From assembly GCF_030013205.1 (NCBI RefSeq), contig NZ_CP122648.1: DNA of 64,000 nucleotides; one strand, given 5' to 3'. Of the stretch, positions 28,248 to 43,403 are shown one piece after another. A program made the translations under genes and the position numbers. The notes beneath the pieces are model-generated. The model did no database searches. It was not told the DNA's origin and saw only the letters and a program-made list of their open reading frames with translations. Each line of letters starts with the position of its first letter. Within the stretch, counting starts at the first letter, position 1. Origin of the DNA: Escherichia coli. Lineage in GTDB: Bacteria > Pseudomonadota > Gammaproteobacteria > Enterobacterales > Enterobacteriaceae.

Positions 28248-29003
28248 ATTTTGAGTGCGGGACGCCTGAATAAAAAATCTCTGGGTATCGTGATGTTGTT
28301 ATCGGTTGGACTGCTTTTGGCGGGCTGCTCGGGTAGCAAATCATCCGATACAGGAACGTATTCCGGCTCCGTTTACACCGTGAAACGGGGGGATACGCTA
28401 TATCGTATTTCGCGCACCACGGGAACCAGCGTAAAAGAGCTGGCGCGACTGAACGGCATTTCCCCCCCTTACACCATTGAAGTTGGTCAGAAACTAAAAC
28501 TGGGTGGGGCGAAAAGTAGCAGTACACGTAAATCAACCGCCAAATCAACGACCAAAACCGCATCGGTTACACCGTCATCAGCAGTACCGAAATCTTCCTG
28601 GCCGCCAGTAGGGCAACGTTGTTGGTTATGGCCAACGACAGGGAAAGTTATCATGCCGTATTCGACAGCTGATGGCGGCAATAAAGGGATTGATATCTCA
28701 GCTCCACGGGGTACACCTATTTACGCCGCGGGTGCAGGAAAGGTGGTGTATGTGGGCAACCAGCTGCGTGGCTACGGTAATCTCATCATGATTAAACACA
28801 GTGAAGATTACATTACGGCTTACGCCCATAATGACACGATGCTGGTAAATAATGGGCAAAGCGTGAAGGCTGGGCAAAAAATCGCCACTATGGGGAGCAC
28901 TGATGCGGCATCGGTTCGCCTGCATTTCCAGATTCGTTACCGTGCAACGGCAATTGATCCGCTACGTTACTTGCCGCCTCAGGGCAGCAAGCCAAAATGC
29001 TGA
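28248..29003 (+). CDS. ygeR: LysM-domain, M23 peptidase-like lipoprotein
   Basis: TTG start after a GAGGA RBS; lipobox LLLAGCSG; LysM (YTVKRGDTLYRISR) plus C-terminal M23-like domain; 251 aa. Confidence 0.85.
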   Translation: MLSAGRLNKKSLGIVMLLSVGLLLAGCSGSKSSDTGTYSGSVYTVKRGDTLYRISRTTGTSVKELARLNGISPPYTIEVGQKLKLGGAKSSSTRKSTAKSTTKTASVTPSSAVPKSSWPPVGQRCWLWPTTGKVIMPYSTADGGNKGIDISAPRGTPIYAAGAGKVVYVGNQLRGYGNLIMIKHSEDYITAYAHNDTMLVNNGQSVKAGQKIATMGSTDAASVRLHFQIRYRATAIDPLRYLPPQGSKPKC

Positions 29004-29036
29004 TGGCGAATTAATCAGCAGTCAGCAGCGCGGCAC

Positions 29037-29064
29037 TTGCTAAGGAGAGCGTAAGGTTTATAAT
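29037..29064 (+). promoter_or_regulatory. putative sigma70 promoter of glyU
   Basis: TTGCTA (29037-29042), 16-bp spacer, TATAAT (29059-29064), about 27 bp upstream of the mature tRNA 5' end. Confidence 0.5.
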
Positions 29065-29091
29065 GCCTTACGCATCTCGAAGCGGGCGTAG

Positions 29092-29165
29092 TTCAATGGT
29101 AGAACGAGAGCTTCCCAAGCTCTATACGAGGGTTCGATTCCCTTCGCCCGCTCCAAACAAACATT
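29092..29165 (+). tRNA. glyU: tRNA-Gly (anticodon CCC)
   Basis: 74-nt cloverleaf GCGGGCG...CGCCCGCUCCA; anticodon stem AGAGC/GCUCU around loop UUCCCAA; T-arm GGUUCGAUUCC. Confidence 0.95.
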
Positions 29166-29319
29166 TCTCAACGTCTACTAAAGTCCATCAAACCCACGAA
29201 TATCAAGCCTTCCAGCCATTTTCATAGTTTATTAACGTCTACTCACAACTACCAGAATCTACACACAGAAGTGTATAGTAATGCGTATAGGACAAAATTT
29301 ATTTTTTGGAGCTATACAC

Positions 29320-30534
29320 ATGCTGCTTTCAGACCTTGCCATCAGGCGCGCGAAGCCGAAAGAAAAGGCTTATACACTCAATGACGGTAACGGGCTTTCG
29401 TTGCTCATTGAGCCGAACGGTTCGAAAGGGTGGCGACTGCGCTACAGGTTTGCAGGAAAGCCCAAAATGTTGTCGTTGGGTGTGTACCCTGATGTGTCTC
29501 TGTCTGATGCCAGGGCGGCAAGGGATGAGGCTAAAAGGCTTCTTGCTGGTGGTATAAATCCAAGTGAGGCCAGAAAAGCCCAAAAGCGAGAACAGGCGAG
29601 CAAATTTGGCAATACTTTTGAGGGTATTGCTCGCGAATGGTACGAAAAGCGGATCGACAGGTGGTCATCGTCATACGCCGAGGAAATGATCGAGACGTTT
29701 GAAAAAGATGTTTTTCCGTACATTGGCGGTAGGCCGATCGCAGAAATTAAGCCGATGGAATTGCTGGCGGTTCTTTCCCGTCTTAATGACCGTGGTGCGA
29801 CTGAAAAATTGCGTAAGGTTCGCCAGCGATGCGGCGAGGTGTTCCGGTACGCAATCATCACCGGACGCGCCGAATATAATCCAGCCCCTGACCTGGTGAG
29901 CGCATTTGCTCCACATAAAAAAGAGCATTACGCCTATTTGAAGGCCGACGAACTGCCGGAATTTTTCCGCGTTTTTAATACGTACACCGGAAGCCAGATC
30001 GTCAAACTGGCAATGCGGCTATTAATTCTGACAGGTGTCAGACCCGGGGAATTACGGCAGGCAGAATGGCAGGAGATCGATTTTGATAATCGTTTGTGGG
30101 AAGTGCCTAAAGAACGAATGAAGATGCGCCGTCCGCATTGTGTGCCATTACCAGAACAGGCGATAAAAATACTGGAGCAGTTAAAAAACATGACAGGCCA
30201 GTATCAGTTTATTTTCCCCGGTCGTATTCGCCACAGTAAGCCAATGAGTGAAATGGCGATGAATGTGCTCATTCGTCGTATCGGCTATGCCGGGCGCGTT
30301 ACTGGTCATGGATTCCGGCACACCATGAGCACCATTTTGCATGAGCAGGGCTATAACACTGCGTGGATAGAAACGCAGCTCGCGCACGTCGATAAAAACT
30401 CAATTCGTGGCACGTACAACCATGCGCAATATCTGGACGGGCGGCGGGAAATGCTTCAGTGGTACGCTGATTATATGGATTCGCTCGAGCATGGCGGAAA
30501 TGTGGTGCATGGTGAGTTCGGAAAATGCGGGTGA
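29320..30534 (+). CDS. int: tyrosine integrase, P4 family
   Basis: ORF track 29281..30534; start taken at MLLSDLAIRRAKPK (29320); catalytic HGFRHT and RGTYNHA motifs. Confidence 0.9.
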   Translation: MLLSDLAIRRAKPKEKAYTLNDGNGLSLLIEPNGSKGWRLRYRFAGKPKMLSLGVYPDVSLSDARAARDEAKRLLAGGINPSEARKAQKREQASKFGNTFEGIAREWYEKRIDRWSSSYAEEMIETFEKDVFPYIGGRPIAEIKPMELLAVLSRLNDRGATEKLRKVRQRCGEVFRYAIITGRAEYNPAPDLVSAFAPHKKEHYAYLKADELPEFFRVFNTYTGSQIVKLAMRLLILTGVRPGELRQAEWQEIDFDNRLWEVPKERMKMRRPHCVPLPEQAIKILEQLKNMTGQYQFIFPGRIRHSKPMSEMAMNVLIRRIGYAGRVTGHGFRHTMSTILHEQGYNTAWIETQLAHVDKNSIRGTYNHAQYLDGRREMLQWYADYMDSLEHGGNVVHGEFGKCG

Positions 30535-30656
30535 CTGGTTGAGTATACAGTAGTAGACTTTGAGCGACGAAAGAAAAGGCTGTGTCTAGGGTCGCTCCCG
30601 AAAATCCGTACACCTCGACGGACTGGTACAGCCACTACAGTAGAGGACGCTGAGGT

Positions 30657-31460
30657 GTGCGTATGATTGATATTCATGCCGAATTAAACGAATACAAAAA
30701 AGATTTTATTTCTTTACGTGAATTTCTTGAGGTCGTGCTTAAGGTCGCTGGTGATGATTATGATGTTTCAGATGTCATAACTTGGATACTCAGGAGAATA
30801 AGCGGAGAACATATCCGCCTGTACACAGTAAATGAATTTAAGCTGTTGGAATCTTTTTGTAACCCGTATCGGGATGAATTTGATAATGATGTTCTTTATA
30901 GAAATCTGAATGCGGTTCGGAAACGTGGTTGTTTACCTGGTGAGAGGGATGAAAATGGTTTTCTGGTGTCCGGTTATTGGGAAGATCCCGAATTTGAGAA
31001 CATTGGATTTATAAGGGGTGAAATTTTCGCAATTTTTCCCGATGTCCTTGACGCGTTAACGAAGCTGGAAGGCGCTAACTCTTCTGAAAATGACGAGGCA
31101 CAAGGACGCGATATTGAAAAGAAAGAGTTGCGTACAGAGGATGATTTATTATCCCAAATCGCAATGCTGGAAAAAGAAAACGCAGAGTTAAGGGCAAGGA
31201 TAGAGCAGTTAGAGCAAGAGCGCCCGATACACTTATATAAATACTGGGATAAAGACCCATTAGCTAAGGCTATTGAGATTAGAAACAGAGAGTGGGCCAA
31301 TTACGATCCAGAAAATGATTTTGCCACCAGGGGAAATCAAGAAGCGATAACCAGGGAGCTTAAGCAGTGGGGGGCAAGTAATGCACTTGCAACGCTCATA
31401 GAGAGGACTGCCTGCCCTATTAACCGAGACAACAGCCAAAAGAACGCAAAGCCGGATTAA
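30657..31460 (+). CDS. hypothetical protein, 267 aa, C-terminal coiled coil; orphan cargo gene between int and alpA
   Basis: Complete ORF; predicted coiled coil (LSQIAMLEKENAELRARIEQLEQE); no catalytic motif recognised. Confidence 0.7.
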   Translation: MRMIDIHAELNEYKKDFISLREFLEVVLKVAGDDYDVSDVITWILRRISGEHIRLYTVNEFKLLESFCNPYRDEFDNDVLYRNLNAVRKRGCLPGERDENGFLVSGYWEDPEFENIGFIRGEIFAIFPDVLDALTKLEGANSSENDEAQGRDIEKKELRTEDDLLSQIAMLEKENAELRARIEQLEQERPIHLYKYWDKDPLAKAIEIRNREWANYDPENDFATRGNQEAITRELKQWGASNALATLIERTACPINRDNSQKNAKPD

Positions 31461-31475
31461 CGCACCATACCGCAT

Positions 31476-31619
31476 ACCCTGAGGGTGATTTACTGTTACC
31501 CTGAGGGTATTTTTTTATCTTCCCCGTCAATTTTACCATCACCCTTAGGGTAGATTTCCTCCCGATTACCATCACCCTTAGGGTAGATTTCCTTCCGGTA
31601 ACCATTAGGCCTGAGGGTA
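31476..31619. repeat. five copies of an imperfect palindrome CCCT-n-AGGGTA upstream of alpA
   Basis: Copies at 31476-31486, 31498-31508, 31541-31552, 31574-31585, 31609-31619; a 25-bp unit ACCATCACCCTTAGGGTAGATTTCC occurs twice. Confidence 0.7.
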
Positions 31620-31687
31620 TGAAAATATTCGTTATTTCTGTGCCATGATTACCTCGTCAAATTGAGTAGACGTTATGAGGTAAATAT

Positions 31688-31885
31688 ATGTCAAATACGC
31701 TTATTCGTTTAACAGAAGTTCAGCGTAGAACTGGATATAGCAAGGCATGGATTTATCGCCTTATGGGGCAAGGTAAATTTCCTGCATCAGTTAAAATTGG
31801 CTCGCGAGCTATTGCTTTCGTTGAGAGTGAAATTGACGAGTGGATTAATCAGCGTATTGCGGAATCACGCGGAACAGCTACCTGA
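31688..31885 (+). CDS. alpA: AlpA-family phage transcriptional regulator (MerR-like HTH)
   Basis: 65-aa ORF; VQRRTGYSKAWIYRLM...FPASVKIGSRAIAFVESEIDEWI is the AlpA signature. Confidence 0.85.
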   Translation: MSNTLIRLTEVQRRTGYSKAWIYRLMGQGKFPASVKIGSRAIAFVESEIDEWINQRIAESRGTAT

Positions 31886-31962
31886 TTAAATGGCTACGGG
31901 GCTATTGCCCCCAGCTATCCACCAGCAAATAAAAGTAACTTAATTCGATAGCAGGAGTTTTT

Positions 31963-32763
31963 ATGAAATTTCCAAAAACGCCCGTACAGGGGCGGGGCTT
32001 CGTTCGGCCTGAAAACCAGAATCTGCAAAATTTCGGCGAAATTATCCCGATTATTTCCGGCGTTATTGGCGGGAGTGAAACCACTATTGTTAGCGCCAGA
32101 GCGTTACATAAGGCGTTAGGTGTAGGGCGCGTTTTCCGTTCGTGGATCAAGGGGCGCATTGAAGAATATGGGTTCACGGAAGGCGTGGATTATAAGGTTG
32201 TTGAATATTTGAGCCGACCCGATCCGGTGAGCGCAAAATCTCGCCAGCAAACCGCTCTTGAGTACATCATCACAGTGAACATGGCGAAAGAACTGGCGAT
32301 GGTCGAACGTACCGAACAGGGCCGCGCCGTTCGCCAGTACTTTATCAAATGCGAGGAGGAGCTACACAAGGTTGCGCCTGTTCGTTCCGCAGCGTTACGC
32401 CGGGAACTGAAAGCCCGTATCACAGTTGCCAGCTACTTTAAGCCAATGTGTGCCGCGCTGGAGGCGTACCGGGCTGAACTGGGTAAAAACACACTCCAGC
32501 ACCACTACACCACGGAAGCGAACATGCTGGCGCGTATCGTGCTGGGTGGCATGACTGCAAAACAGTGGGCACTGGCGAACGGCATTACAGGCGAACCACG
32601 CGACCACATGAGCACGTTGCAGCTTGAGCACCTTTCTTACCTTGAGCAGAGCAATATCACGCTGATTGAGTTAGGCCAGGACTACCACCAGCGGAAGGCT
32701 GAATTAATTCGTCTTTCGCAGCGTTGGTTAGCCCGTCGCATGGAGGAAAACAGCCATGTGTAA
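31963..32763 (+). CDS. phage antirepressor-like protein (Bro-N/AntA-type N-terminus)
   Basis: 266-aa ORF; the N-terminal region resembles phage antirepressor proteins. Confidence 0.6.
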   Translation: MKFPKTPVQGRGFVRPENQNLQNFGEIIPIISGVIGGSETTIVSARALHKALGVGRVFRSWIKGRIEEYGFTEGVDYKVVEYLSRPDPVSAKSRQQTALEYIITVNMAKELAMVERTEQGRAVRQYFIKCEEELHKVAPVRSAALRRELKARITVASYFKPMCAALEAYRAELGKNTLQHHYTTEANMLARIVLGGMTAKQWALANGITGEPRDHMSTLQLEHLSYLEQSNITLIELGQDYHQRKAELIRLSQRWLARRMEENSHV

Positions 32764-33237
32764 CGCTCTGACCGTTACAAAAAGAAAAAGCGCCCCGTTG
32801 CCGGAGCGCCTTTGTGAACGAATAGCCTACTGCGCCATATTGCTTACTGTCTACGAGGCAGATTATAGCGTTGTGGTCGCACAGAGTGAAGGCGCTGATC
32901 ACCGTTACTACAGCACACCAGAAATGCAGAATATTTTGCTGCAAAATGTCGTTGGCCACGCTGTCCGGAAAGCAAAAAATTTTGCTGGTGGCGTGACTGA
33001 TACGATTTTTTCTGGTTGCTCGGTGCTGATCAACTTAACCTGGACTTATGTACAACATTGCAACTATTCCTACTTTAAGCTGAATGTAACTTTACCTATA
33101 TCATTAGAGGTATGGTCGCGCTTGACCTCAATTTCACCATTTTGTAGCCCTGCTACAAAAAAATATAAAAGTGTCAATGTTGCTGCAATCAGTAACCATT
33201 TTCCAAAAATATACATTCTTGATTTTACCCTTAATCG

Positions 33238-33411
33238 TCAACCTTTTGGCACGATGCCTCGCTGTTGTAATTCTTTGCGGAGCACTCGTTTAATCCAGGT
33301 AGCTAATGAGGTGTCGCCGTCTGCTTTGGCTGCCTCCTCAAGTTGTGCCCTAAATTCTTCTGGTAGCCGCATTTGGTATGGTGGCGATCGTTTTTCTAAT
33401 GGTGTTGACAT
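33238..33411 (-). CDS. Arc/MetJ-type ribbon-helix-helix DNA-binding protein (57 aa)
   Basis: Manual translation MSTPLEKRSPPYQMRLPEEFRAQLEEAAKADGDTSLATWIKRVLRKELQQRGIVPKG; below the 60-aa ORF-track cutoff; start abuts a palindromic operator. Confidence 0.6.
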   Translation of the reverse strand: MSTPLEKRSPPYQMRLPEEFRAQLEEAAKADGDTSLATWIKRVLRKELQQRGIVPKG

Positions 33412-33451
33412 GGTAATTACCCATAATTACTATAGTTACACGGTAATTACC
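33412..33451. promoter_or_regulatory. putative operator: two perfect GGTAATTACC palindromes 30 bp apart
   Basis: Palindromes at 33412-33421 and 33442-33451 in the divergent region between the Arc-like gene and the 33548 gene. Confidence 0.55.
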
Positions 33452-33547
33452 ATTGTACTTACCATTGCAAAAAAAACAACGCCCCGGACTGCGGGAACAG
33501 TACCAGGGCGTCTAACCACCAACGATAGCGAAAGTATCGAGGTAGCT

Positions 33548-33751
33548 ATGATAAATCATACCACACACCCGCAAGGGCGGGACTCGCACAACCTGAATAA
33601 ATACATCTGGCGTTTTATCGCCCTGAGCACGGCACAACCGCGCGTGATTCACATCGAGGCCACCAGCGAACAGGAAGCCCGCCAGCAATCTCCTGATGGC
33701 TGCGTGATGGTATTCGCTGCCCGTATTCGCCAGGAGGTACGCCATGATTAA
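33548..33751 (+). CDS. hypothetical small protein (67 aa)
   Basis: ATG at 33548 with a GAGG RBS; 8-nt overlap with the next ORF. Confidence 0.55.
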   Translation: MINHTTHPQGRDSHNLNKYIWRFIALSTAQPRVIHIEATSEQEARQQSPDGCVMVFAARIRQEVRHD

Positions 33752-34109
33752 CCTGTCACTTACCGACCTTCACCGCATTCAGTTTGACGAGAAATTTACC
33801 GGGCAGCTACTGGTCCATGTGGAGAACGGGCGCATAGTGCGTAATTACCACCTGCCGGATGGTGCAATTGCCGGAAGCGTTGAAGCATTGCTGGAAATGG
33901 CAGAACGTGCGCGACTGATTAAGCCGTTAACGTGCCATCACGATGATGATCTGCATTTTACCGGACGCATGGTGAGCCATTATGAAAACGGCGTTGAGGT
34001 ATCCCGCGAACGTCTGCGTGATGATTGCTGTTTCGGCACATTGCCGGAATTTATCGAATTGCTGACCGATTGCGGTTATCAGGTAATTCAGAGCAAGACG
34101 CAGGAGTAA
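33744..34109 (+). CDS. hypothetical protein (121 aa)
   Basis: ORF track; operon context upstream of primase. Confidence 0.6.
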   Translation: MINLSLTDLHRIQFDEKFTGQLLVHVENGRIVRNYHLPDGAIAGSVEALLEMAERARLIKPLTCHHDDDLHFTGRMVSHYENGVEVSRERLRDDCCFGTLPEFIELLTDCGYQVIQSKTQE

Positions 34110-34115
34110 AAAACC

Positions 34116-34406
34116 ATGAAAAAGAAAAATTCTGGCTTTACTGCCAGCGGCCCCGCTCGGCCTGAAATCAAACACGGCGATATTTACCGCGACACCAGAC
34201 GTGGGGGACGAGTGGTTATTCGTCACGTTACGCCAGGCAATATCACCTACCGCCGTGAGGCTTACGAATATGACTGCGTAATGCCGCGCCGTCAGTTTGA
34301 GCGTGATTTTATTCTGGTGGAAAACAAACAACAGGCGGTGGCGAGACGTGCAGCCACGAATATTAAAAAAATCCGGGCAATGTTGGTTGCGGGAGGTAAG
34401 AAGTGA
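34116..34406 (+). CDS. hypothetical protein (96 aa)
   Basis: ORF track; 4-nt overlap with the primase start. Confidence 0.6.
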   Translation: MKKKNSGFTASGPARPEIKHGDIYRDTRRGGRVVIRHVTPGNITYRREAYEYDCVMPRRQFERDFILVENKQQAVARRAATNIKKIRAMLVAGGKK

Positions 34407-36208
34407 AAAACGCCCCGAATTTAAAATATCAGCCGAAGGATAAATTCACTGAGGTAATCATTTTTGCCGGGACGGATGCTTACGCCCATGCTCAACACTG
34501 GATTGAAAGCGAAGGACGAAAACACGGCGATAACGTACCACCTGTTTACCTGGGGCCGAAGCAACTGGCAGACCTGGCGAACATCCGCATTATCGACGAA
34601 GGGCGCCGCTTTGCGCGTGTCTATATCGCAGGGGAGATCGAACCAATTCAGATCAACGCTATCGCCGAAAAGCTGGCACTGGCTGGCGTACAGGAGGCGA
34701 AATTATACAAAGGCATCACCGACCGGGAGCCGGAGAACTGGCGCGATTACCTGCAACGGATCCGCGAACAGGCAGAGCGCGGGGAAGTTTCAGCGATGAA
34801 ATTAGTCACAAAAAATAGTGACCTACCCAGGCCAGCACTAAATCAGATGGGAGCCAGCCAGAGAGGGGAAGTATTGCTTGAATATTATGGAAGGGCACTG
34901 GCTATAAATGACGATTCTGATGTAGTTCACCATTACAACGGAATTGTCTGGGAGCCTGTATCTGATAAGGAACTCCAGCGGTCTATGGCGAAGATTTTTA
35001 TTGATGCTGGAATCAGTTATTCGCAAAACGCCATTAAATTTGCCGTAGACACAATGAAATTGAGCCTGCCTGTTATGGGCGGGGCAGACAGGAATCTTAT
35101 TGGATTCAGTAACGGGGTATTTGATACCCGGACAGGAAATTTTCGGGAGCATAACAAAAATGACTGGTTGTTAAATGCCAGTGAATTACCGTTCAGCCCA
35201 CCAGCAGAGGGGGAAACGCTGGCAACACATGCGCCGAATTTCTGGAAGTGGCTGCGTCGTTCGGTGGCAAATAACGATCGTAAAGCGGATCGCGTACTGG
35301 CGGCATTATTCATGGTACTGGCGAACCGGTACGACTGGCAGTTATTCCTTGAGGTAACGGGGCCGGGCGGAAGCGGTAAAAGTGTGATGGCGGAGATTTG
35401 TACCATGCTGGCGGGTAAGGCCAATACAGTATCGGCGAGCATGAAGGCGCTGGAAGACGCGAGGGAACGAGCGTTAGTGGTGGGATATTCTCTGATTATC
35501 ATGCCTGACATGACCCGCTACGCAGGTGATGGTGCTGGGATTAAGGCCATTACAGGCGGTGACAAGGTGGCAATCGACCCGAAACATAAAGCCCCCTACT
35601 CCACACGTATTCCGGCGGTAGTGCTGGCAGTAAACAATAACGCCATGTCATTCAGTGATCGCAGTGGAGGGATCTCGCGTCGTAGGGTGATATTTAATTT
35701 CTCTGAGGTCGTACCGGAGAACGAACGCGATCCCATGCTGGTGGAAAAAATAGAAGGCGAACTGGCGGTAGTGATTCGCCATTTGCTTACACGATTTGCC
35801 GACCAGGACGAAGCGAAAAGACTACTTTATGAGCAGCAAAAATCAGAAGAAGCACTGTTAATAAAGCGTGAAGGTGATTCGCTGGTGGACTTCTGCGGTT
35901 ATCTGATGTCGTTGGTTAAATGTGAGGGGATGATAGTAGGTAATGCAGAAATAGTGCCATTTAGCCCGAGGCGATATCTGTATCATGCTTATTTGGCTTA
36001 TATGTCTGCGCATGGTCTGGGAAAACCGGTATCACTGACACGCTTTGGTACAGATATGCCAGGGGCAATGGCTGAGTACGGAAAGGAGTACAAGCGGGCT
36101 AAATGCACTAAAGGTCCAGATAAAGGGCGAACGATCACAAATGTTCTGTTAGATAAAGATGCTGATGGATGGTTACCAGCAGCGGCAGGCATTAACGACA
36201 GAACATGA
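34403..36208 (+). CDS. phage/satellite-type DNA primase-helicase (P4 alpha / D5-like)
   Basis: 601-aa ORF; Walker A GPGGSGKS; followed directly by an iteron array. Confidence 0.8.
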   Translation: MKNAPNLKYQPKDKFTEVIIFAGTDAYAHAQHWIESEGRKHGDNVPPVYLGPKQLADLANIRIIDEGRRFARVYIAGEIEPIQINAIAEKLALAGVQEAKLYKGITDREPENWRDYLQRIREQAERGEVSAMKLVTKNSDLPRPALNQMGASQRGEVLLEYYGRALAINDDSDVVHHYNGIVWEPVSDKELQRSMAKIFIDAGISYSQNAIKFAVDTMKLSLPVMGGADRNLIGFSNGVFDTRTGNFREHNKNDWLLNASELPFSPPAEGETLATHAPNFWKWLRRSVANNDRKADRVLAALFMVLANRYDWQLFLEVTGPGGSGKSVMAEICTMLAGKANTVSASMKALEDARERALVVGYSLIIMPDMTRYAGDGAGIKAITGGDKVAIDPKHKAPYSTRIPAVVLAVNNNAMSFSDRSGGISRRRVIFNFSEVVPENERDPMLVEKIEGELAVVIRHLLTRFADQDEAKRLLYEQQKSEEALLIKREGDSLVDFCGYLMSLVKCEGMIVGNAEIVPFSPRRYLYHAYLAYMSAHGLGKPVSLTRFGTDMPGAMAEYGKEYKRAKCTKGPDKGRTITNVLLDKDADGWLPAAAGINDRT

Positions 36209-36236
36209 TACGAAATTTATAAGTTGAAACTTAAAA

Positions 36237-36572
36237 GTAGACGGTTGGTAGACAGATACACTTAACCCTCTACCAACCATCTACTAATTAATGTTTTGAA
36301 TTATATAGGTATTTTTAATGTGGTAGAGAGGTGGGCAGTTATTTCTATATTCCTAAACCACGGGGGGTATATAAAAAAACAGATAGTTAAGGGTTCATTT
36401 TTTAAATTTCTCTTTTAACTGTCTACACTGTCTACCATTTAGTAAAAATCATTAATTATCAATGTATTAATGCGGTAGACAGTTAGTAGACAGTTTGCAG
36501 ATTGTTTTTTTGTTATGAGTTAATAACATTAAATAAATCAATCAATTATATCGGTAGACAGTTGGTAGACAG
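36237..36572. repeat. putative replication origin: paired GGTAGACAG iterons flanking an AT-rich segment
   Basis: GTAGACGGTTGGTAGACAG (36237-36255), inverted copy (36268-36284), TGGTAGAGAGGTGGGCAG (36321-36338), inverted pair (36419-36436), GCGGTAGACAGTTAGTAGACAG (36473-36494), TCGGTAGACAGTTGGTAGACAG (36551-36572). Confidence 0.7.
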
Positions 36573-36580
36573 TTGTAACG

Positions 36581-37123
36581 ATGGGGCAAAGCATGACTAA
36601 GCTGACCATTAACAGAAAACCGAAAGGCATTTATGGCACGCCGCAGAAAACGACGCAGGCGGCACAGGAGCAGGATAAAACCACGTCGGCGCATAAAGTG
36701 ATGCCCGGTAACCAGAAAGCGCAGCAGAAGCCCACAGGGGCGACACCGTGGCGGCATATGACCAAGCGCCAGCGCAAAAACCGCAGGCGCATTAACCGCC
36801 TCACTGAGTTGTGGCCTGAATTATTCAGCCGGGAAGCACCGAAGCCGCTTAAGGTGGGGATATTCGACGACCTGATGCAGGATCTCGCCGTCAGGGGGCT
36901 GGCATTCGGTCCAGGGGCATTGCGTGCGACGCTGGCATCTTATGCACAGTGTCCGCGCTATTACCGCGCCTTAATGGCTGGTGGGGTACGCTACGACCTG
37001 AAAGGCCAGCCGTGCGGCGAGGTGACACCACAGGAACAACAGGACGCAGAAACGCGGCTGGTGGCGCTGAATGAGAAGCGCAAACGTCAGCGCCGGGTAG
37101 CAAAGGAGAAAACAGGCGCATGA
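36581..37123 (+). CDS. ProQ/FinO-domain RNA-binding protein
   Basis: PLKVGIFDDL...LRATLASYAQCPRYYRAL...YDLKGQPCGEV parallels ProQ (PLKIGIFQDL...LRSALRLYTSSWRYL...VDLDGNPCGEL). Confidence 0.75.
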   Translation: MGQSMTKLTINRKPKGIYGTPQKTTQAAQEQDKTTSAHKVMPGNQKAQQKPTGATPWRHMTKRQRKNRRRINRLTELWPELFSREAPKPLKVGIFDDLMQDLAVRGLAFGPGALRATLASYAQCPRYYRALMAGGVRYDLKGQPCGEVTPQEQQDAETRLVALNEKRKRQRRVAKEKTGA

Positions 37124-37407
37124 TTCACGACAGCAAAGCGGAAGCACTGGAAGCGCGTGGTCTGTACCGGAGAGCGGCGGCGCGGTGGGCTGAGGTCATC
37201 ATGCTGGCGAATGATGACAAGGCACGGGAACAGGCGGCAAAACGTCGCGCGGAATGTATCCGCAAGGCAGCACGCCCACCAGCACGGCAGGATAATTTCG
37301 GGGAGATGCGCGAAACCATCAGCCGGGCACATGCCGGGATGGGATTACATCAGCCCAATGGTAAGGCATTCAGGAAATACCCTGGATCGAAAAATTGCAG
37401 TCAGTGA
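37120..37407 (+). CDS. PerC-family transcriptional activator-like protein
   Basis: 95-aa ORF; SKAEALEARGLYRRAAARWAEV matches the PerC-family N-terminal signature; ATGA overlap with the upstream gene. Confidence 0.6.
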   Translation: MIHDSKAEALEARGLYRRAAARWAEVIMLANDDKAREQAAKRRAECIRKAARPPARQDNFGEMRETISRAHAGMGLHQPNGKAFRKYPGSKNCSQ

Positions 37408-37608
37408 CGGAGGCCGGGATTTTTCCCGGCTTTTTTGTGCCAGTAAAAAGCCCGCAGCCAGAAGTGTTGCGGGCTTTGTTTTTCAGGTGATTGAAGTCAA
37501 TGGGAAGAACGCGATCATCATGCGTTATTGTTTCATAAATTGCAATGATGTAGATCGTCATTTCAGTTTGTGCAATCATAATCGTTGTTTTGTTCAGGAG
37601 ATATGACT

Positions 37609-37782
37609 ATGAGAAAAGCCAGCGTGAAACCTGTTTTACTCGCTCGTGATCAGATTGAAGCATTACAGCGCATCCAGGACGAGGAACGCCGCAATTCTCC
37701 GCTGGGGATTGCTCCGAGCATTCATGAGGTCGCCCGGCGTTTAATGCAGCGGGCGCTTTATCCCGTAGAACGTCCGGCCTGA
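37609..37782 (+). CDS. hypothetical small protein (57 aa)
   Basis: ATG at 37609, 9 nt after an AGGAG RBS; ORF track 37585..37782. Confidence 0.45.
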   Translation: MRKASVKPVLLARDQIEALQRIQDEERRNSPLGIAPSIHEVARRLMQRALYPVERPA

Positions 37783-37821
37783 TGGTCGTGATTTTTTGGT
37801 GAAAAAAGAGAGGTGGTAAAA

Positions 37822-38400
37822 ATGCCAGCAAGCAAAGAAGATTTGCGATTAAAACTGATGGAGGTGGTTAACGCTCTGTCAGAGTCGCAGGGCAGCACTC
37901 CGCAGGAGATTATCGAAATTCTGAATGCGATCCCCGCACAGGATTTCATAAAAGAGGATAACGCTAATCAAAACATCGTCGCGTCAGTCGAAGATGAATC
38001 CTCACTGGCAGAAGCCCAGGCCAAAGCGGATTCCGCATACAGCAATATGGGCCGTCGAGCTCCGGCCCCGTTTGCTGGTGAAAAGTCGATGGATTACCGC
38101 AAGCGTGCATTAATTGGCGCACAGAAGCTGGCTAAAAAATTCAGTGATGTGGATATTCGTTCCGTTTCAGATTCTGCAACGCTGGCGGTGCTGGAAGATC
38201 AGATTTACAAGGCTGCTCAGGAAAGTGCTCAGTGGGCCGTGGAAAACACGCCGGGTTATTTGACTAAAAAAGTCAGGATGGATGAAGCCGGGCGCCGGAT
38301 TACTGAATATCAGGGGGATCCGAATAACTGGCTTAGTGCTTTCAAAATCCCTCCCCGTCGCCTGGTCAAAATTAACGTTGCAAGCCTCGCGGGGGCATGA
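37822..38400 (+). CDS. hypothetical protein (192 aa)
   Basis: ORF track 37813..38400; ATG at 37822 follows GAGAGGTGG. Confidence 0.65.
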   Translation: MPASKEDLRLKLMEVVNALSESQGSTPQEIIEILNAIPAQDFIKEDNANQNIVASVEDESSLAEAQAKADSAYSNMGRRAPAPFAGEKSMDYRKRALIGAQKLAKKFSDVDIRSVSDSATLAVLEDQIYKAAQESAQWAVENTPGYLTKKVRMDEAGRRITEYQGDPNNWLSAFKIPPRRLVKINVASLAGA

Positions 38401-38464
38401 AAAACGTGCTGATTTCAGCCCTGCCGGATTTGGCGGGGCTTATTGATTATAACCGGGTGACATT

Positions 38465-39148
38465 ATGCTTTTAACAGAAATTGAGGCGGCAAAGCAGATT
38501 CGGGACGGTCAGCTACCGTCGCCTTATCAGTTCTCCAACATGTGGCTGGTTAACCTGCGTATTACAGGGACTGGCATGGCCTACCGCGCCGAAGAAAAAG
38601 AATTTGTCTGGCGTTCACCGCAAACTTATCTCAATCCGCAGTTCCTGGAACGTTGCGCCGGAGTACCCGTCATTATCGACCATCCCGAAGGCAAAACCAT
38701 TGAAGACGTTGGCGAACGGTCGCGCATTATTGGCACCGTCATGTTGCCGTATATTCGCGGTGACGAGGTGTGGGGTGTATGCCGGATTTACGGGCAGGAA
38801 ATCATCGATTACATCCAGAAAGCACGGGGGGAGGTATCCACCAGCCCGTCGGTTGTGTTTTGTGGTGCGTCCGGTGGGGCAGAAGTTCCTGATGTAATGG
38901 GCGAGGACAATTTTTTCATTGAGGGTACGCCATTTCTTATCGATCACGTTGCGCTCGTACCGTTGGGCGTATGGGATAAGGGCGGGAAACCATCAGGTGT
39001 GGAAGTAACAACGCCGACAGAAGAAGAACAGCTCGCCGGAATGGTCCGTGAAGTTATTGATGCGGCCTGCAAGCCAGCTCTGGAAAAACTGGAAGAAATA
39101 TCCGGGCGGCTGGATCAACTGGAAAAAAACAGAGTGAGTGAATCATGA
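38465..39148 (+). CDS. hypothetical protein (227 aa)
   Basis: ORF track; overlaps the next gene by 4 nt. Confidence 0.65.
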   Translation: MLLTEIEAAKQIRDGQLPSPYQFSNMWLVNLRITGTGMAYRAEEKEFVWRSPQTYLNPQFLERCAGVPVIIDHPEGKTIEDVGERSRIIGTVMLPYIRGDEVWGVCRIYGQEIIDYIQKARGEVSTSPSVVFCGASGGAEVPDVMGEDNFFIEGTPFLIDHVALVPLGVWDKGGKPSGVEVTTPTEEEQLAGMVREVIDAACKPALEKLEEISGRLDQLEKNRVSES

Positions 39149-39762
39149 AAATTGCTAAAAACTTAAATCTGATTATCCCTGTGCGCACTGAAAAGGGTAA
39201 TGGCTGGCTCCATGCCACGCCGATCAGCAAAGAGGTGTTTAAAGAGCATTTCTTCATCCTGAGTAAAACCTTTTCTGCCATTTTTTCTGAAGGTCTTGGT
39301 GTTGTTGCGGGTCCGCGCGTTGCCTGCCTTATGCTGGAGAAAATCTCCCGTGACTCCGGTTTATGGGATGGGGAGAAAGGCATACGTAATACGCTCATAA
39401 ACGAAATTATTCGCCTGGCAAACCTTGTTTATCCAGTGGAGGGCAAAGGCTACGACACAATCCCTCTCGATATGGCGCTGGAGCGTGAAATCGTTGATTT
39501 GGACGAAGTGGCGGGTGAACTTGTTTTTTTTACATGCGTCTCGTCGATAAATTCCCCGGAGCAGACGAAGGGGACTATGGATGCGGTGAATGGAATATGG
39601 AGCACTCAATGCTCGTCCTTGAGTCTTACGGAATGGATCGATTCATTGCCGACATTGAAGCCTGCCGTCAGTTCTGGCGCGACGGCGAACACGTCATCAG
39701 CGACATCCTCGACTACTCAGCCGGAGCCGGATTCAGAGACATCTGTGCAGATTCCGGTCTGA
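39145..39762 (+). CDS. hypothetical protein (205 aa), Ser/Thr-rich C-terminus
   Basis: ORF track; translationally coupled to the upstream gene. Confidence 0.65.
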   Translation: MKIAKNLNLIIPVRTEKGNGWLHATPISKEVFKEHFFILSKTFSAIFSEGLGVVAGPRVACLMLEKISRDSGLWDGEKGIRNTLINEIIRLANLVYPVEGKGYDTIPLDMALEREIVDLDEVAGELVFFTCVSSINSPEQTKGTMDAVNGIWSTQCSSLSLTEWIDSLPTLKPAVSSGATANTSSATSSTTQPEPDSETSVQIPV

Positions 39763-39826
39763 ATGTAAAAACAGCAGCTCAGTTTCGTGAGCTGCTCAAA
39801 TTCAAAAATCCCGCAGGAGTATTGTA

Positions 39827-41866
39827 ATGTCAGGTAATCAGATGCCAGTTCTGACGCTGGACGTTAATGAAGAACACCTCAAACGGCTTGAGGCAATTTT
39901 TGAAAAGTATCGCAACGGGCTGATGATCGGCCCTGCCGGAACGCCGATGAAAATACCGGGGCAAAGTGGGCGCAGCGTGGGGGCAGGCTTACCCGTGGCG
40001 GCAAAATCTGGTCGGACAGGACCGGATGTATCCGGGAGAGTGAGGGACGAAAAAGGGCGCTTTGTCGGCAGCGGAAAAACAGCAGATTCGTTCGTAAGCA
40101 ACTATAAAGGTCGCGGCGAAACGATGTTTGATAAGTATCTCAGCGGGCTGGGGAAAAATGCCCAACAGACGCTGAAAACTTACAAGCAGATCAATTCTAC
40201 ACTACAGACGACCACTTCAAGATTAAACAACCTGTTTAAAACAACCGTATCGTGGGGAACAAAACTCTCGGTTATGGGCGTTGCCGGACCGTTTGGCTTT
40301 GGCATGATGTCCCGTAGTGTTGTAGAGAAACAGAAAAATGCAGATGAGCTGGTGGCAACGCCAGGAGAGTTAAAGGCGGCAGAAAGCACTTATTCGCCTT
40401 ATTTTTCCGGTGTTGGCAATGTGCTCAATACACTGGCAGCAGCACAAAATGATATATCGCATCCTGCCCGCGTCGGCCTGCTTAATCTGGGGCTAAATCC
40501 TGATAAAAACGCGACTGAAAACCTGCCTGTATTCCTGAAAAAGGTTGCAGAGCTGGCAAAGGAATATCAGGGAAGTGGTCTTACCCAGAGCATGCTCAGG
40601 GGAAGAGGGCTTGGATGGGTAAATTTTGGTCTTACTAACCAGTTAGTCAAATATCAGGACAAAATACCTGAACTCAACAAAGAGTTTTCGTTACGTGCAG
40701 CGCAGAATGATTCGTTACTGACCTCTGCACATACAAGTAAATATCAGAATATTACCAGTAACCTGGAAAAAAACTGGGATCGGCTTACCAGCGGATTTCA
40801 GGGAGCAATGGCGGGGAATGAAGACGCTTTAATCAGAATGTCTGATGGTGCCACGAATGCTGCCCTGAATTTCATGAATGGTGAGAACTTTAAAAGGATT
40901 CTGACGGATGTAGAAACGGGGCTGGATAAACTTGGTAAGTACGTAAATGGCCCGGATTTTAATAACGACCTGAACAATTTTGCCGAAAACGTTGCAAAGG
41001 TTGTTAAGGCACTTAGCGGGTTTGTTGGTTTTGCGGTTGAACATCCCTGGCTTTTTGGGGCCGCAGTACTTGCTGGACCATCGAGAGTTGGTGCTGTGGC
41101 AGCCACAACGACCGGAGTTGCCGCCCGTGTTGTTGGTGGAAGTCTTCTTGGGGCTACAGCCGGAACAGTAGCTGGATTGGCTATTCCTACAAATGACACA
41201 CCTACCACCAGTGAGGAAATGAAAGGGCTGGAGGGGCGTTTCAACTTTGATTATTTTAACGAAGTGCAGGAGTGGCAAAAAAACAATCCGGGTAAGGTCT
41301 GGCCTGGAGGATTGCAGGGATTTTCAAATCAAGTAAACAGATCTGCATATTTATCCAGAGGGATCAGGAATAACAATCCCGGAAATCTTAATTTCGCAGG
41401 ACAAAAAGGGGCTACCCTGGAATCGGGGCCAAATGCCCGTTTTGCCAGCTTCCCGACGATGCTGGAAGGCATTGCCGCCTTAGATCGGCAGGTAATGCTA
41501 TACCTGAAACGCGGCAAAAATACGATTGATCAGATTATTGATATTTATGCCCCTTCATCTGATGGAAATAACACATCGTCCTATAAAAGCTATCTCTCTC
41601 AGTACACCGGATTAGGTGTTAAGGAGAAAATCGATGGTTCTAATTTTGAGGTCATGAAAAAGCTAATTCAGGGCATTATTAACCATGAAAATGGTGCTGC
41701 CGCTAAAGCTGTAAGTGTTGAAGATGTGATCCGGGCGCTGGCTATGAATCGTGGGATTGTCCCTGCAGCAGGAAACAATGATCAGAACGTTAAGTTGGAA
41801 ATTGTTCGGAACGCTGGTGCCGATTACTTCGCGCAACTAATTGGTGCTCAACGGTTCCTGGGATGA
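39827..41866 (+). CDS. large hypothetical protein (679 aa) with glycine-rich hydrophobic segment, tape-measure-like
   Basis: AGGAG RBS; central segment AVLAGPSRVGAVAATTTGVAARVVGGSLLGATAGTVAGLAI; function not assignable from sequence. Confidence 0.7.
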   Translation: MSGNQMPVLTLDVNEEHLKRLEAIFEKYRNGLMIGPAGTPMKIPGQSGRSVGAGLPVAAKSGRTGPDVSGRVRDEKGRFVGSGKTADSFVSNYKGRGETMFDKYLSGLGKNAQQTLKTYKQINSTLQTTTSRLNNLFKTTVSWGTKLSVMGVAGPFGFGMMSRSVVEKQKNADELVATPGELKAAESTYSPYFSGVGNVLNTLAAAQNDISHPARVGLLNLGLNPDKNATENLPVFLKKVAELAKEYQGSGLTQSMLRGRGLGWVNFGLTNQLVKYQDKIPELNKEFSLRAAQNDSLLTSAHTSKYQNITSNLEKNWDRLTSGFQGAMAGNEDALIRMSDGATNAALNFMNGENFKRILTDVETGLDKLGKYVNGPDFNNDLNNFAENVAKVVKALSGFVGFAVEHPWLFGAAVLAGPSRVGAVAATTTGVAARVVGGSLLGATAGTVAGLAIPTNDTPTTSEEMKGLEGRFNFDYFNEVQEWQKNNPGKVWPGGLQGFSNQVNRSAYLSRGIRNNNPGNLNFAGQKGATLESGPNARFASFPTMLEGIAALDRQVMLYLKRGKNTIDQIIDIYAPSSDGNNTSSYKSYLSQYTGLGVKEKIDGSNFEVMKKLIQGIINHENGAAAKAVSVEDVIRALAMNRGIVPAAGNNDQNVKLEIVRNAGADYFAQLIGAQRFLG

Positions 41867-41917
41867 TTTAAATACACGCGCTTTCCGGCGCATTAATACA
41901 GTCTGAGGGGAAGTGTC

Positions 41918-42445
41918 ATGTTTATGAGCAAGGCAGAATATGCCAAACACAAAGGCGTAAGCCGCCAGACAGTTTACGACTGGATCGAGAAAGGCGAAGT
42001 GATCATGTCTGGCAAAAAAATTGATGTGGAAGCGACAGAGCAGCGGAACAGCCCACCAGCACAGGGAAAAGATACCGTTTCTGAAATGTGGCCAGAGAGA
42101 ACGCTGGAAATGACGTGGGGCGAGTTCTGGAAAGCAGTTAAGGCCAGAGACGGTAAAATCCCTGCACCAGTAACGGACAATGACATACAGCAGCGTGTAC
42201 AGGATGCAGCCGGGGAACTATGCTGTGAAGTGCAATTTCTTGATGATGGTGCTATCTGCCTTGAGGATTATGCTGGGCAATATTACTTTGAGCAGTATGA
42301 TTTTCGGGAAAATGCCAGGCTGGCAATTCGTATGCTGCGTTGTGAGCTCTGCTATGTTGCAGGTGATTGTCCCGATGAGCTGGATAACTGGAGTGAAGCC
42401 GGACTAAACGCCCTGGCTGAGTGGGAAAAATCAGGCCATCAATGA
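41918..42445 (+). CDS. HTH protein resembling terminase small subunit Nu1 N-terminus
   Basis: N-terminal KAEYAKHKGVSRQTVYDWIEKGEV resembles the lambda Nu1 winged-HTH region; GAGGGGA RBS; 175 aa. Confidence 0.55.
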   Translation: MFMSKAEYAKHKGVSRQTVYDWIEKGEVIMSGKKIDVEATEQRNSPPAQGKDTVSEMWPERTLEMTWGEFWKAVKARDGKIPAPVTDNDIQQRVQDAAGELCCEVQFLDDGAICLEDYAGQYYFEQYDFRENARLAIRMLRCELCYVAGDCPDELDNWSEAGLNALAEWEKSGHQ

Positions 42446-42451
42446 CCTCAA

Positions 42452-42732: not shown

Positions 42733-42739
42733 GTAAACC

Positions 42740-43385: not shown

Positions 43386-43403
43386 TTCCCTTCGCCCGCT
43401 CCA
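43386..43403 (+). repeat. att direct repeat (18-bp copy of the glyU 3' end) at the island 1 / island 2 junction
   Basis: TTCCCTTCGCCCGCTCCA is identical to tRNA positions 29148-29165. Confidence 0.85.

What the first reader, a model, noticed from the sequence alone, without database searches (positions are those of the whole stretch)
30657..31460. Orphan cargo gene in the int-alpA slot of island 1
A single 267-aa ORF with no recognisable catalytic motif and a C-terminal coiled coil sits between the integrase and AlpA. In P4-like and PICI-type satellites this position is a variable cargo hotspot that often holds anti-phage genes. It is visibly more AT-rich than the flanking int and alpA.
Basis: inference. 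Interest (0 to 1): 0.6.

Follow-up and report, generated by a model that had tools for sequence, protein, structure and literature searches.

The report
Uncharacterised alpA-linked gatekeeper gene in satellite
The gene is real, but it is not free-floating cargo: it belongs to a small uncharacterised family that always sits just upstream of the satellite master switch alpA, with its own RNA leader and repeated DNA boxes, so it most likely helps control when the island wakes up.

Summary
The ORF is real (30657/30663..31460, +). It lies in a 14.2-kb phage satellite at tRNA-Gly (att repeats 29138-29155 and 43386-43403). No Pfam, PHROG-function, NCBIfam, PADLOC, PDB-sequence or fold match exists.

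It is not an orphan. It has a variable N-domain, a coiled coil (aa 159-186) and a conserved 70-aa C-terminal domain (CTD). The CTD defines about 117 cluster representatives among 1.84 billion proteins and is always C-terminal.

In every architecture recovered the gene lies directly upstream of an AlpA-family gene, including islands whose integrase is at the far end. This holds for 61 of 62 IMG/VR loci.

It carries two private cis elements. The Rfam "int-alpA RNA" motif (30579-30646) ends 15-21 nt before the start codon. Helically phased palindromes TACCCTNAGGGTA begin 16 nt after the stop codon. Islands with near-identical AlpA but without this gene lack both.

Best reading (inferred, about 0.5): a dimeric box-binding regulator gates alpA, and the hypervariable N-domain gives specificity or senses the helper phage. 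The anti-phage cargo reading is not excluded but has no positive support.

The parts
29082..29155 (+). tRNA-Gly(CCC), the integration target. Its last 18 nt (29138-29155) form attL.
   Evidence: ARAGORN; Rfam tRNA, 71.6 bits; 18-bp direct repeat shared with 43386-43403.
29281..30534 (+). P4-type tyrosine integrase of the island.
   Evidence: phrog_1 integrase, E=8e-80; RefSeq annotation.
30531..30559 (+). Candidate promoter of the gene (-35 GTGACT at 30531-36; -10 TAGACT at 30554-59). Weak, inferred only.
   Evidence: GTAGACTT is conserved upstream of the RNA motif in int-adjacent loci. It falls below the threshold of the consensus scan, which found none.
30579..30646 (+). int-alpA RNA motif (Rfam RF02996), the structured 5' leader of the gene.
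   Evidence: 45.5 bits against a gathering score of 35.8, full-length match to the model. The same motif lies directly 5' of the family gene or of its small partner ORF in 9 of 13 first-round sources and 30 of 40 IMG/VR loci at gathering score, plus 3 just below it. The ORF start is 15-21 nt after the motif end in 35 non-redundant instances.
30651..30665 (+). Conserved Shine-Dalgarno block (TGAGGTG) and the probable start codon ATG 30663 (alternative GTG 30657).
   Evidence: Sequence. The block (A/G)CG..GAGGTG..ATG is conserved across loci. An alternative fold pairs GUACACCUC of the motif with GAGGUGUGC.
30663..30986 (+). Variable N-terminal domain (aa 1-108). Its topology (beta-alpha-alpha-beta-beta at aa 15-64) is reminiscent of a winged helix. 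Proposed specificity or sensor domain.
30987..31082 (+). Conserved 'GF-R-x-E-I' element (aa 109-140). It corresponds to the N-terminus of the short (152-aa) family members.
   Evidence: Alignment A1; mosaic identity pattern.
31083..31136 (+). Acidic disordered linker (aa 141-158).
   Evidence: pLDDT below 50 at aa 140-158.
31137..31220 (+). Coiled coil (aa 159-186), the presumed dimerisation element.
   Evidence: Single long helix H159-186 in the AF2 model. Weak bZIP, DivIC and TolA-trimerisation Pfam hits.
31221..31430 (+). Conserved C-terminal domain (aa 187-256; motif DPLxLAIxIRNxEW...AxAIExVACPIxR), the family-defining domain and proposed box-binding domain.
31476..31618 (.). Array of 11-bp palindromes ACCCTNAGGGT at 31476, 31498, 31541 and 31574, plus a degenerate fifth at 31608. 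Centre spacing is 22, 43, 33 and 34 bp. It includes a 33-bp tandem duplication (31533-31598). Proposed operators.
   Evidence: Four exact and one near match in 64 kb, against 0.79 expected with up to 1 mismatch. Exact boxes occur only directly after family genes in the 20 loci held at that point, and never elsewhere in each IMG/VR locus. Absent from X-less islands with near-identical AlpA.
31649..31683 (+). alpA leader hairpin in which UUACCUC pairs with the alpA Shine-Dalgarno sequence GAGGUAA.
   Evidence: RNAfold on 27 loci shows the stem kept through compensatory changes, for example in L002, L025, L036 and L044.
31688..31885 (+). alpA, the AlpA-family regulator. It is the master activator of Gram-negative PICIs according to PMC6092414.
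   Evidence: phrog_2790 and phrog_66, E=1.5e-11. RefSeq lists it as an HTH/AlpA family regulator.
43386..43403 (.). attR, an 18-bp repeat of the tRNA 3' end marking the right end of the 14.25-kb island.
   Evidence: the repeat finder family D4, 100% identity.

Best explanation
I call the ORF X. It is one component of a conserved four-part control module of AlpA-type phage satellites: a structured RNA leader (the Rfam int-alpA motif), then X, then an array of phased palindromic boxes, then alpA.

Shown: the four parts co-occur in the same order and at the same spacing across very different islands, and the boxes and the RNA track X rather than AlpA or the integrase.

Inferred: X dimerises through its coiled coil. 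Its conserved C-terminal domain binds the TACCCT-N-AGGGTA half-site pairs that fill the space between its stop codon and alpA. This gates expression of alpA, either as a repressor or roadblock that keeps the island silent, or as a sensor-activator. AlpA is the activator that starts excision and replication of such islands.

Speculative: the hypervariable, recombining N-domain gives each allele its specificity, for instance by binding a helper-phage protein. X's own translation would be set by the leader RNA, whose conserved ACCUC can pair with X's Shine-Dalgarno sequence.
For: (1) Linkage to alpA. X-family genes lie immediately upstream of an AlpA-family gene in int-X-alpA islands. The same holds in Yersinia int-108aa-Xshort-alpA, in a metagenomic 99aa-X-alpA-like-antA locus and in a DUF1233-X-alpA contig. 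It also holds in cf-PICI-like islands whose integrase is at the opposite end. In IMG/VR, 61 of 62 loci have an AlpA-like ORF next on the same strand.

(2) Boxes. In the window 4-5 copies are phased at about 11n bp. Exact boxes occur only in the stretch just after X genes in all loci. Box type varies with CTD subfamily: ACCCT, ACTAT or ACCGT. Non-palindromic hybrids such as ACCCTCATAGT argue for DNA half-site reading by a dimer rather than for RNA hairpins.

(3) The boxes follow X, not AlpA. EcCIMP1 and L013 have near-identical AlpA DNA-binding regions but no X and no boxes. In L082 and L083 the boxes stay at X's stop codon although alpA is 631 bp away or absent.

(4) The boxes follow the CTD, not the N-domain. 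They are the same for fused, split and minimal (coiled coil + CTD, 109-118 aa) proteins.

(5) Domain pattern. The CTD is 45-96% identical while the N-domain is 1-69% identical, with mosaic alleles.

(6) The RNA leader sits at fixed spacing from the start codon.

(7) Literature. [quoted passage not shown]
Confidence: 0.5

Rival explanations
1. X is anti-phage or interference cargo. It would be a stand-alone sensor-effector protein whose variable N-domain recognises phage components. It would sit at a permissive insertion point just before the island's early operon and would carry its own leader and terminator.
For: Slot content differs among sister islands. The N-domain is hypervariable and the alleles are mosaic, as in arms-race genes. 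X is AT-rich relative to int. The literature places accessory and defence genes near int in satellites (PMC10085698). X is optional, being absent from functional PICIs (PMC6092414).
Against: No PADLOC, Pfam or fold similarity to any defence protein or enzymatic effector was found. A 70-aa helical CTD is an unlikely effector. The adjacency to alpA holds even when int is far away, which a hotspot next to int does not explain. The phased multi-copy boxes go beyond what a terminator needs. X is absent from the phage and plasmid collections.
Confidence: 0.2
2. X is a replication or recombination accessory factor. It would bind the boxes as iterons or as an architectural site and recruit host DNA-metabolism proteins, acting with AlpA in its excisionase role or with the island's primase.
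For: In split loci the N-domain protein ends in EPPMDFDDDIPF, which is identical to the E. coli SSB C-terminal tip. From established knowledge, that tip docks many replication and repair proteins. AlpA relatives act as excisionases (PMC10111431). Iterated phased repeats are typical of origins.
Against: The window's fused X has no SSB-like tail. The boxes are 2.3 kb from attL and 11.8 kb from attR. PICI origins map downstream of pri (PMC10111431). No AT-rich unwinding element or DnaA box was examined.
Confidence: 0.12
3. AlpA, not X, binds the boxes. X would then be a protein-level modulator, for example an anti-activator that holds AlpA.
For: AlpA activates its own promoter (PMC6092414), so AlpA sites must exist upstream of alpA. 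X and AlpA are always neighbours.
Against: Islands with near-identical AlpA DNA-binding regions but no X have no boxes. The same ACTAT boxes occur with very different AlpA proteins in L005 and L017. In L082 and L083 the boxes stay with X. A separate 'TAGAC' repeat is a better candidate AlpA site (inference).
Confidence: 0.1

Closest known systems
Stl / Rpr master repressors of SaPIs and other Gram-positive PICIs
   Same: The gene lies next to int and to the island's regulatory gene, with operator-like repeats between it and the gene it would control. One part is conserved and the other is extremely variable between islands. For Stl, the variable part senses helper-phage proteins (PMC6092414, PMC9927489).
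   Different: No HTH_3 or other recognised DNA-binding domain is present. The conserved part is C-terminal. X is transcribed in the same direction as alpA rather than divergently. Repression, DNA binding and phage sensing are all untested. Gram-negative PICIs are described as controlled by an activator.
Rfam RF02996 'int-alpA RNA' motif (from the 224-candidate-RNA survey, PMC5737381)
   Same: Window 30579-30646 matches the model end to end above the gathering score.
   Different: Rfam files it as a candidate sRNA named after its flanking genes. Here it is always the 5' leader of an X-family ORF or of its small partner ORF. It sits 15-21 nt from the start codon, follows X even when int is elsewhere, and is absent from X-less int-alpA gaps. 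That points to a cis-acting translational leader. This link was not found in the papers I could search.
Defence and accessory hotspots of P4-like satellites and PICIs
   Same: The position is close to int, the content differs between sister islands, and the protein has no known function.
   Different: The described hotspots are int-to-psu/delta/sid in P4 and att-to-int in PICIs (bioRxiv 10.64898/2026.02.27.708500; PMC10085698). X matches no defence model and is tied to alpA, not to int.
P4 Vis/PLL node, where helper and satellite activators turn on the alpA homologue vis
   Same: A control region directly upstream of the AlpA-family gene decides satellite activation.
   Different: In P4 that region is the divergent Psid/PLL promoter pair, activated by Delta, Ogr and Cox (my own knowledge, not tested here). 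P4 has no X homologue, and the phage collection gave no match.

Membership tests
Known anti-phage defence systems (PADLOC-DB v2) | Sequence match to a model of a known or candidate defence protein | tested here: not met
   0 of 5027 models at E<=1 for X. No meaningful match for distant family members or for the unrelated slot proteins either: the single hit is P0054 to JetC over its coiled coil, 13 bits, E=0.0039.
Satellite accessory cargo (hotspot gene) | Occupancy varies between otherwise related islands | tested here: met
   X alleles, unrelated 260- and 302-aa proteins, or a 427-bp gap without X.
Satellite accessory cargo (hotspot gene) | Position defined by the hotspot (next to int), independent of the core regulatory genes | tested here: not met
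   X stays directly upstream of alpA when int is at the other end. 61 of 62 IMG/VR loci show the adjacency. X co-travels with the RNA leader and the boxes.
Satellite accessory cargo (hotspot gene) | Confers a phenotype unrelated to the island's own cycle, such as phage resistance | not testable with these tools
   Needs cloning and phage challenge.
Satellite master repressor (Stl/Rpr-like) | Recognisable sequence-specific DNA-binding domain | tested here: inconclusive
Satellite master repressor (Stl/Rpr-like) | Operator repeats between the regulator gene and the regulated early gene | tested here: met
   4-5 phased palindromes at 31476-31618, between X and alpA. The same layout is seen in other loci.
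Satellite master repressor (Stl/Rpr-like) | Divergent transcription from the regulated operon | tested here: not met
   X and alpA are on the same strand in all loci.
Satellite master repressor (Stl/Rpr-like) | Island-specific variable sensing part joined to a conserved part | tested here: met
   N-domain 1-69% identity against 45-96% for the CTD, with mosaic alleles.
Satellite master repressor (Stl/Rpr-like) | Represses the island and is relieved by a helper-phage protein | not testable with these tools
   Needs reporter fusions, deletion of X and interaction assays.
Rfam RF02996 int-alpA RNA (the 5' leader) | Covariance-model score at or above the curated gathering score | tested here: met
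   45.5 bits against 35.8, model positions 1-71 of 71.
PICI / P4-like phage satellite (the host island) | Integrase, AlpA and primase-helicase, co-oriented and bounded by att repeats at a tRNA | tested here: met
   int, alpA and a primase of the D5_N/DUF5906 type. An 18-bp att repeat with 14,248-bp start-to-start spacing, so the element is about 14.25 kb. Mobilisation by a helper was not tested.

The most novel reading that the evidence does not exclude
X would be the missing helper-phage sensor and gatekeeper of AlpA-type (Gram-negative) satellites. In this reading a dimer with a previously undescribed DNA-binding domain sits on phased TACCCT-N-AGGGTA operators and holds alpA off until the variable N-domain meets a helper-phage protein or a replication signal. 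Its own synthesis would be set by the orphan 'int-alpA' RNA, which would thereby gain a function as a translational leader. The SSB-tip mimic on the split N-domain proteins would link the switch to the state of DNA replication.
Probability: 0.3. Interest if true: 0.8.

Novelty: new variant of a known kind. Interest (0 to 1): 0.62.

Why it matters
How Gram-negative phage-inducible islands detect their helper phage is an open question. The founding paper (PMC6092414) states that a global repressor is unclear and that the inducer is unknown. This gene family gives a concrete, testable candidate for an extra control layer at exactly that node. The layer has a new conserved protein domain, a defined DNA motif and a defined RNA leader. 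It also gives the orphan Rfam motif int-alpA a consistent genetic partner. The variable N-domains might help predict which helper induces which island, but that is speculative. If instead the gene proves to be defensive, it would be a defence protein without any known domain, embedded in a satellite's switch. Either way it should no longer be treated as anonymous cargo.

Tried and rejected
- **Family searches.** Pfam, PHROGs, NCBIfam and PADLOC on X gave only coiled-coil noise.
- **Pfam on the wider family.** Across 106 family members the one real hit (a LacI-type Peripla_BP domain) is in P0090. That protein is a chimera of an X fragment and a neighbouring gene, not an architecture.
- **Other collections.** tblastn against 50,697 phage records and 72,556 plasmids found no match.
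- **EcCIMP1_002.** I tested whether this published 'UvrB-like' int-alpA gene (PMC11773190) is a stand-alone CTD. It is not; that gap has no X homologue.
- **Promoters.** The sigma-70 consensus scan of 30300-32000 found no promoter, so the boxes could not be placed relative to a promoter.
- **Boxes as RNA hairpins or terminators.** I judged this less likely because AU-rich and non-palindromic hybrid boxes occur. One subgroup does have a true terminator-like palindrome.
- **Other roles considered and dropped.**
  - Toxin-antitoxin pair: AlpA is common without X.
  - Plasmid-partition centromere protein: there is no NTPase partner.
  - H-NS-like silencer: the CTD motif is different.
- **Literature.** Searches for a Gram-negative PICI repressor or inducer found no description of this family.

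Full report
**1. The observation**

The ORF listing reports an ORF at 30657..31460 (+), 267 aa from GTG. RefSeq annotates the same gene from the in-frame ATG at 30663 (265 aa, WP_000565285.1, 'hypothetical protein'). A GAGGTG Shine-Dalgarno sequence lies 6 nt before that ATG.

The gene lies between a P4-type integrase (29281..30534) and an AlpA-family gene (31688..31885). The host element is a 14.25-kb island in tRNA-Gly(CCC), bounded by an 18-bp repeat at 29138-29155 and 43386-43403. The island also carries antA/B, DUF4222, a primase-helicase, ProQ/FinO-like and PerC-like genes, so it is a PICI/P4-like phage satellite.

The gene is intact in about 3% of complete E. coli genomes: 179 of 5426 with the 1.2-kb query and 147 with the 3' end only. 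It is always chromosomal. Its GC content is 41.5%, against 49.8% for int but 42.9% for alpA. The coiled coil is at aa 159-186 and is followed by a further 70-aa domain.

**2. What the protein is**

No family library recognises it. Pfam, PHROGs, NCBIfam and PADLOC give only coiled-coil noise. Word-indexed homology search finds 43 relatives, all unnamed and mostly Enterobacteriaceae.

The alignment shows a variable N-terminal part and a conserved C-terminal domain (CTD) with the motif DPLxLAIxIRNxEW...AxAIExVACPIxR. A profile of the CTD searched against 1.84 billion representative proteins finds only 117. The domain is at the very C-terminus in nearly all of them (P0090, a chimera, is the exception). 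It lies behind N-terminal regions of 0-450 residues that share no Pfam family. The single Peripla_BP hit is a chimeric protein.

Identity to the window protein is 45-96% in the CTD but 1-69% in the N-domain. Some alleles are mosaic: P0006 is 100% identical in aa 109-140 but 65-69% elsewhere.

AlphaFold2 gives:
- a confident N-domain (pLDDT about 88);
- a disordered acidic linker;
- one long helix (aa 159-186);
- a four-helix CTD.

**3. Genomic context: the decisive evidence**

The family gene is not tied to the integrase. It is tied to alpA.
- In E. coli sister islands carrying the same AlpA (WP_000072422), or the closely related WP_001580986 in L011/L012, the int-alpA gap always holds an X allele of 62-99% identity.
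- In islands whose AlpA differs in sequence (that of L013 still keeps a near-identical DNA-binding region), the gap holds unrelated 302- and 260-aa proteins.
- In the published PICI EcCIMP1 the gap is 427 bp without any X.
- In Yersinia the order is int, a 108-aa ORF, a 153-aa short X, alpA, antA.
- In a low-GC metagenomic element the order is a 99-aa ORF, X, a 53-aa AlpA-like gene, antA.
- In a high-GC contig the order is DUF1233, X, alpA.
- In cf-PICI-like islands (portal, connectors, HNH, terminase) the integrase is at the far end on the other strand, and X still sits directly before alpA.

A scan of IMG/VR with the CTD alignment returned 63 loci. In 62 of them I could call the X ORF, and 61 of those have an AlpA-like ORF next on the same strand (E 1e-15 to 1e-33 against a small AlpA HMM). 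The gap is usually 130-250 bp. Some of these loci are duplicates; about 45 are distinct.

**4. The boxes**

The 227-bp gap between X and alpA contains ACCCTGAGGGT at 31476 and 31498 and ACCCTTAGGGT at 31541 and 31574. A degenerate copy lies at 31608. Centre-to-centre spacing is 22, 43, 33 and 34 bp, which is close to whole helical turns. The window has 5 matches with up to 1 mismatch against 0.79 expected, and four of them are here.

The same layout recurs after every X gene. The first box starts 5-64 nt after the stop codon, and 1-4 perfect copies follow (up to five counting the degenerate fifth box in the window). Box types are:
- ACCCTNAGGGT in Enterobacterales, including a 444-bp contig holding only a 118-aa coiled coil + CTD protein followed by three boxes;
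- ACTATNATAGT in two low-GC groups;
- ACCGTNACGGT in a high-GC contig;
- non-palindromic hybrids such as ACCCTCATAGT or ACCGTGAGGGT.

Exact boxes occur nowhere else in the loci examined. The hybrids cannot form hairpins. I therefore read the boxes as pairs of 5-bp DNA half-sites 6 bp apart, read by a symmetric dimer.

Which protein do the boxes belong to?
- EcCIMP1 and L013 have AlpA proteins whose DNA-binding region is nearly identical to the window's, but they have no X and no box.
- L005 and L017 share ACTAT boxes although their AlpA proteins are very different.
- In L082 and L083 the boxes stay at X's stop codon although alpA is 631 bp away or absent.
- The boxes are the same for X proteins with different, split-off or missing N-domains.

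The boxes therefore track the coiled coil + CTD part of X. Actual binding remains an inference.

**5. The RNA leader**

Rfam's 'int-alpA RNA' (RF02996) matches 30579-30646 end to end at 45.5 bits, above the gathering score of 35.8. The motif's 3' end is 17 nt from ATG 30663.

At gathering score the same motif lies directly 5' of X, or of the small ORF preceding short X, as follows:
- in 9 of the 13 first-round sources (the window plus L001, L002, L009, L010, L016, L017, L018 and L020), including those where int is elsewhere;
- not in the X-less L013, L014 and L015, and not in L005;
- in 30 of 40 IMG/VR loci, with three more just below threshold at the expected place.

In 35 non-redundant instances the ORF start lies 15-21 nt after the motif, behind a conserved Shine-Dalgarno block. 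In the window the minimum-free-energy fold pairs GUACACCUC of the motif with GAGGUGUGC at the ribosome-binding site. That fold excludes the Rfam structure. The overall fold energy is not unusual (z = -1.3).

I infer a cis-acting translational leader rather than a free sRNA. The papers I could search do not describe this.

**6. How it most likely works**

*Shown:* a conserved module of leader RNA, X, boxes and alpA.

[quoted passage not shown] It activates its own promoter and is switched on by the helper phage through an unknown inducer. Whether a repressor exists is 'unclear' (PMC6092414).

*Inferred (about 0.5):* X dimers bind the boxes through the CTD and gate alpA.

*Speculative (about 0.3):*
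- X acts as a repressor or roadblock that also insulates alpA from read-through out of int and X.
- The variable N-domain is the island-specific sensor, functionally like Stl of SaPIs.

*Against:* no recognisable DNA-binding fold, a non-basic CTD, no mapped promoter, and co-directional genes. Working PICIs also exist without X, so X can only be an optional extra layer.

**7. Rivals**

- **Defence cargo (0.2).** Slot variability, the hypervariable N-domain and the literature prior (PMC10085698) fit this reading. However, there is no defence homology and no plausible effector. The linkage to alpA rather than to int is also unexplained. The documented hotspots are int-to-psu (P4) and att-to-int (PICI) (bioRxiv 10.64898/2026.02.27.708500).
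- **Replication or recombination accessory (0.12).** This is prompted by the SSB-tip mimic described below. The window protein lacks that tail, and the boxes are far from att and from the usual ori position.
- **AlpA binds the boxes and X acts on AlpA (0.1).** The X-less islands contradict this.

**8. Other things noticed**

- In split loci the N-domain is a separate 99-149-aa protein. Its start (MLDIAEVLKARESEF[IV]SLRELI...) is homologous to fused X proteins. Its end, EPPMDFDDDIPF, is identical to the C-terminal tip of E. coli SSB.
- The alpA Shine-Dalgarno sequence is sequestered in a leader hairpin (31649-31683) that is kept by compensatory changes across loci. X-less L013 shows it too, although EcCIMP1 does not.

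**9. Novelty and verdict**

The protein family, its CTD, the box motif and the link to RF02996 are undescribed in the libraries and papers I could reach. The kind of thing, a satellite regulatory module, is known. I rate it a new variant of a known kind, with interest 0.62. It makes the open question of how AlpA-type satellites are kept silent and then induced directly testable with a few simple experiments.

Noticed in passing
window 30579-30646: The Rfam RF02996 'int-alpA RNA' motif lies directly 5' of the ORF. Across loci it follows the X-family gene rather than int, at a fixed 15-21 nt from the start codon. That suggests a cis-acting translational leader for this orphan RNA family.
   Followed up: yes
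L025:1-327, L026:3423-3743, L028:2056-2385, L046:1593-1943 and similar split loci: Where the N-domain is a separate small protein, it ends in EPPMDFDDDIPF. This is identical to the C-terminal tip of E. coli SSB (1eqq_A residues 167-178). Variants end in DDDDVPF, TNIPF or GDIPF. The window's fused protein has no such tail.
   Followed up: partly
window 31649-31683: In the alpA leader, UUACCUC pairs with the alpA Shine-Dalgarno sequence GAGGUAA. The stem is kept through compensatory changes in other loci, including the X-less island L013. alpA translation therefore looks blocked on long or read-through transcripts.
   Followed up: partly
window 30546-30560 and 31667-31672; L026, L030, L032, L034, L036, L049 upstream of the RNA motif: Repeated 'TAGAC' elements (ATAGACAGT, GTAGACTT, GTAGACGA) lie between int and the RNA motif, and again in the loop of the alpA leader hairpin. 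They could be AlpA or Int binding sites, or the -10 element of the gene's promoter.
   Followed up: no
window 31533-31598: A 33-bp tandem duplication carries one box per unit. The O104:H4 island (L008) has a single unit, so box number varies between strains.
   Followed up: partly
L050, L059, L062, L065, L070, L071 (first ~60 nt after the X stop codon): One family subgroup replaces the 11-bp boxes with a long terminator-like palindrome, ATACCCTGCC-TATATA-GACAGGGTAT followed by a T run. It uses the same TACCCTG half-sites at wider spacing.
   Followed up: no
window 28500-43000 versus L002, L010, L015, L017: Sister islands carry the P4-type immunity RNAs (Rfam C4 and isrK) in the region after antA. 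The window's island gave no such hit at E<=0.1.
   Followed up: no
L013:2435-3343 and L014:2392-3174: Islands with other alpA alleles hold unrelated 302- and 260-aa proteins in the same gap. Neither has a Pfam, PHROG or PADLOC match. They share a weak N-terminal similarity (LPxxxFxxLxxAA...), which may point to a further regulator family in this position.
   Followed up: partly
L083:2982-4926: A distant family member lies in a prophage-style switch region, after an XRE-type HTH gene and facing a divergent cI-like HTH gene. Two ACCCTCAGGGT boxes follow its stop codon, and no AlpA-like gene is nearby.
   Followed up: no
window 39827-41866: A 679-aa island ORF (phrog_7694) has a C-terminal part resembling lytic transglycosylase or endolysin domains of phage tail and injection proteins. 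This is unusual cargo for a satellite.
   Followed up: no
window 42446-42679: Three copies of CGCGAAAAAGTGTCAA, plus inverted GTGTCAA/TTGACAC elements, lie near the right end of the island. They could form an ori-like or packaging-site-like repeat cluster.
   Followed up: no
L001 (E. coli F9792) 12736-17386: An identical int-X-alpA module sits next to phage tail genes and a pinE invertase pseudogene instead of tRNA-Gly and actS. The same module therefore occurs at several chromosomal sites: glyU, thrW/proA, and next to cas genes.
   Followed up: no
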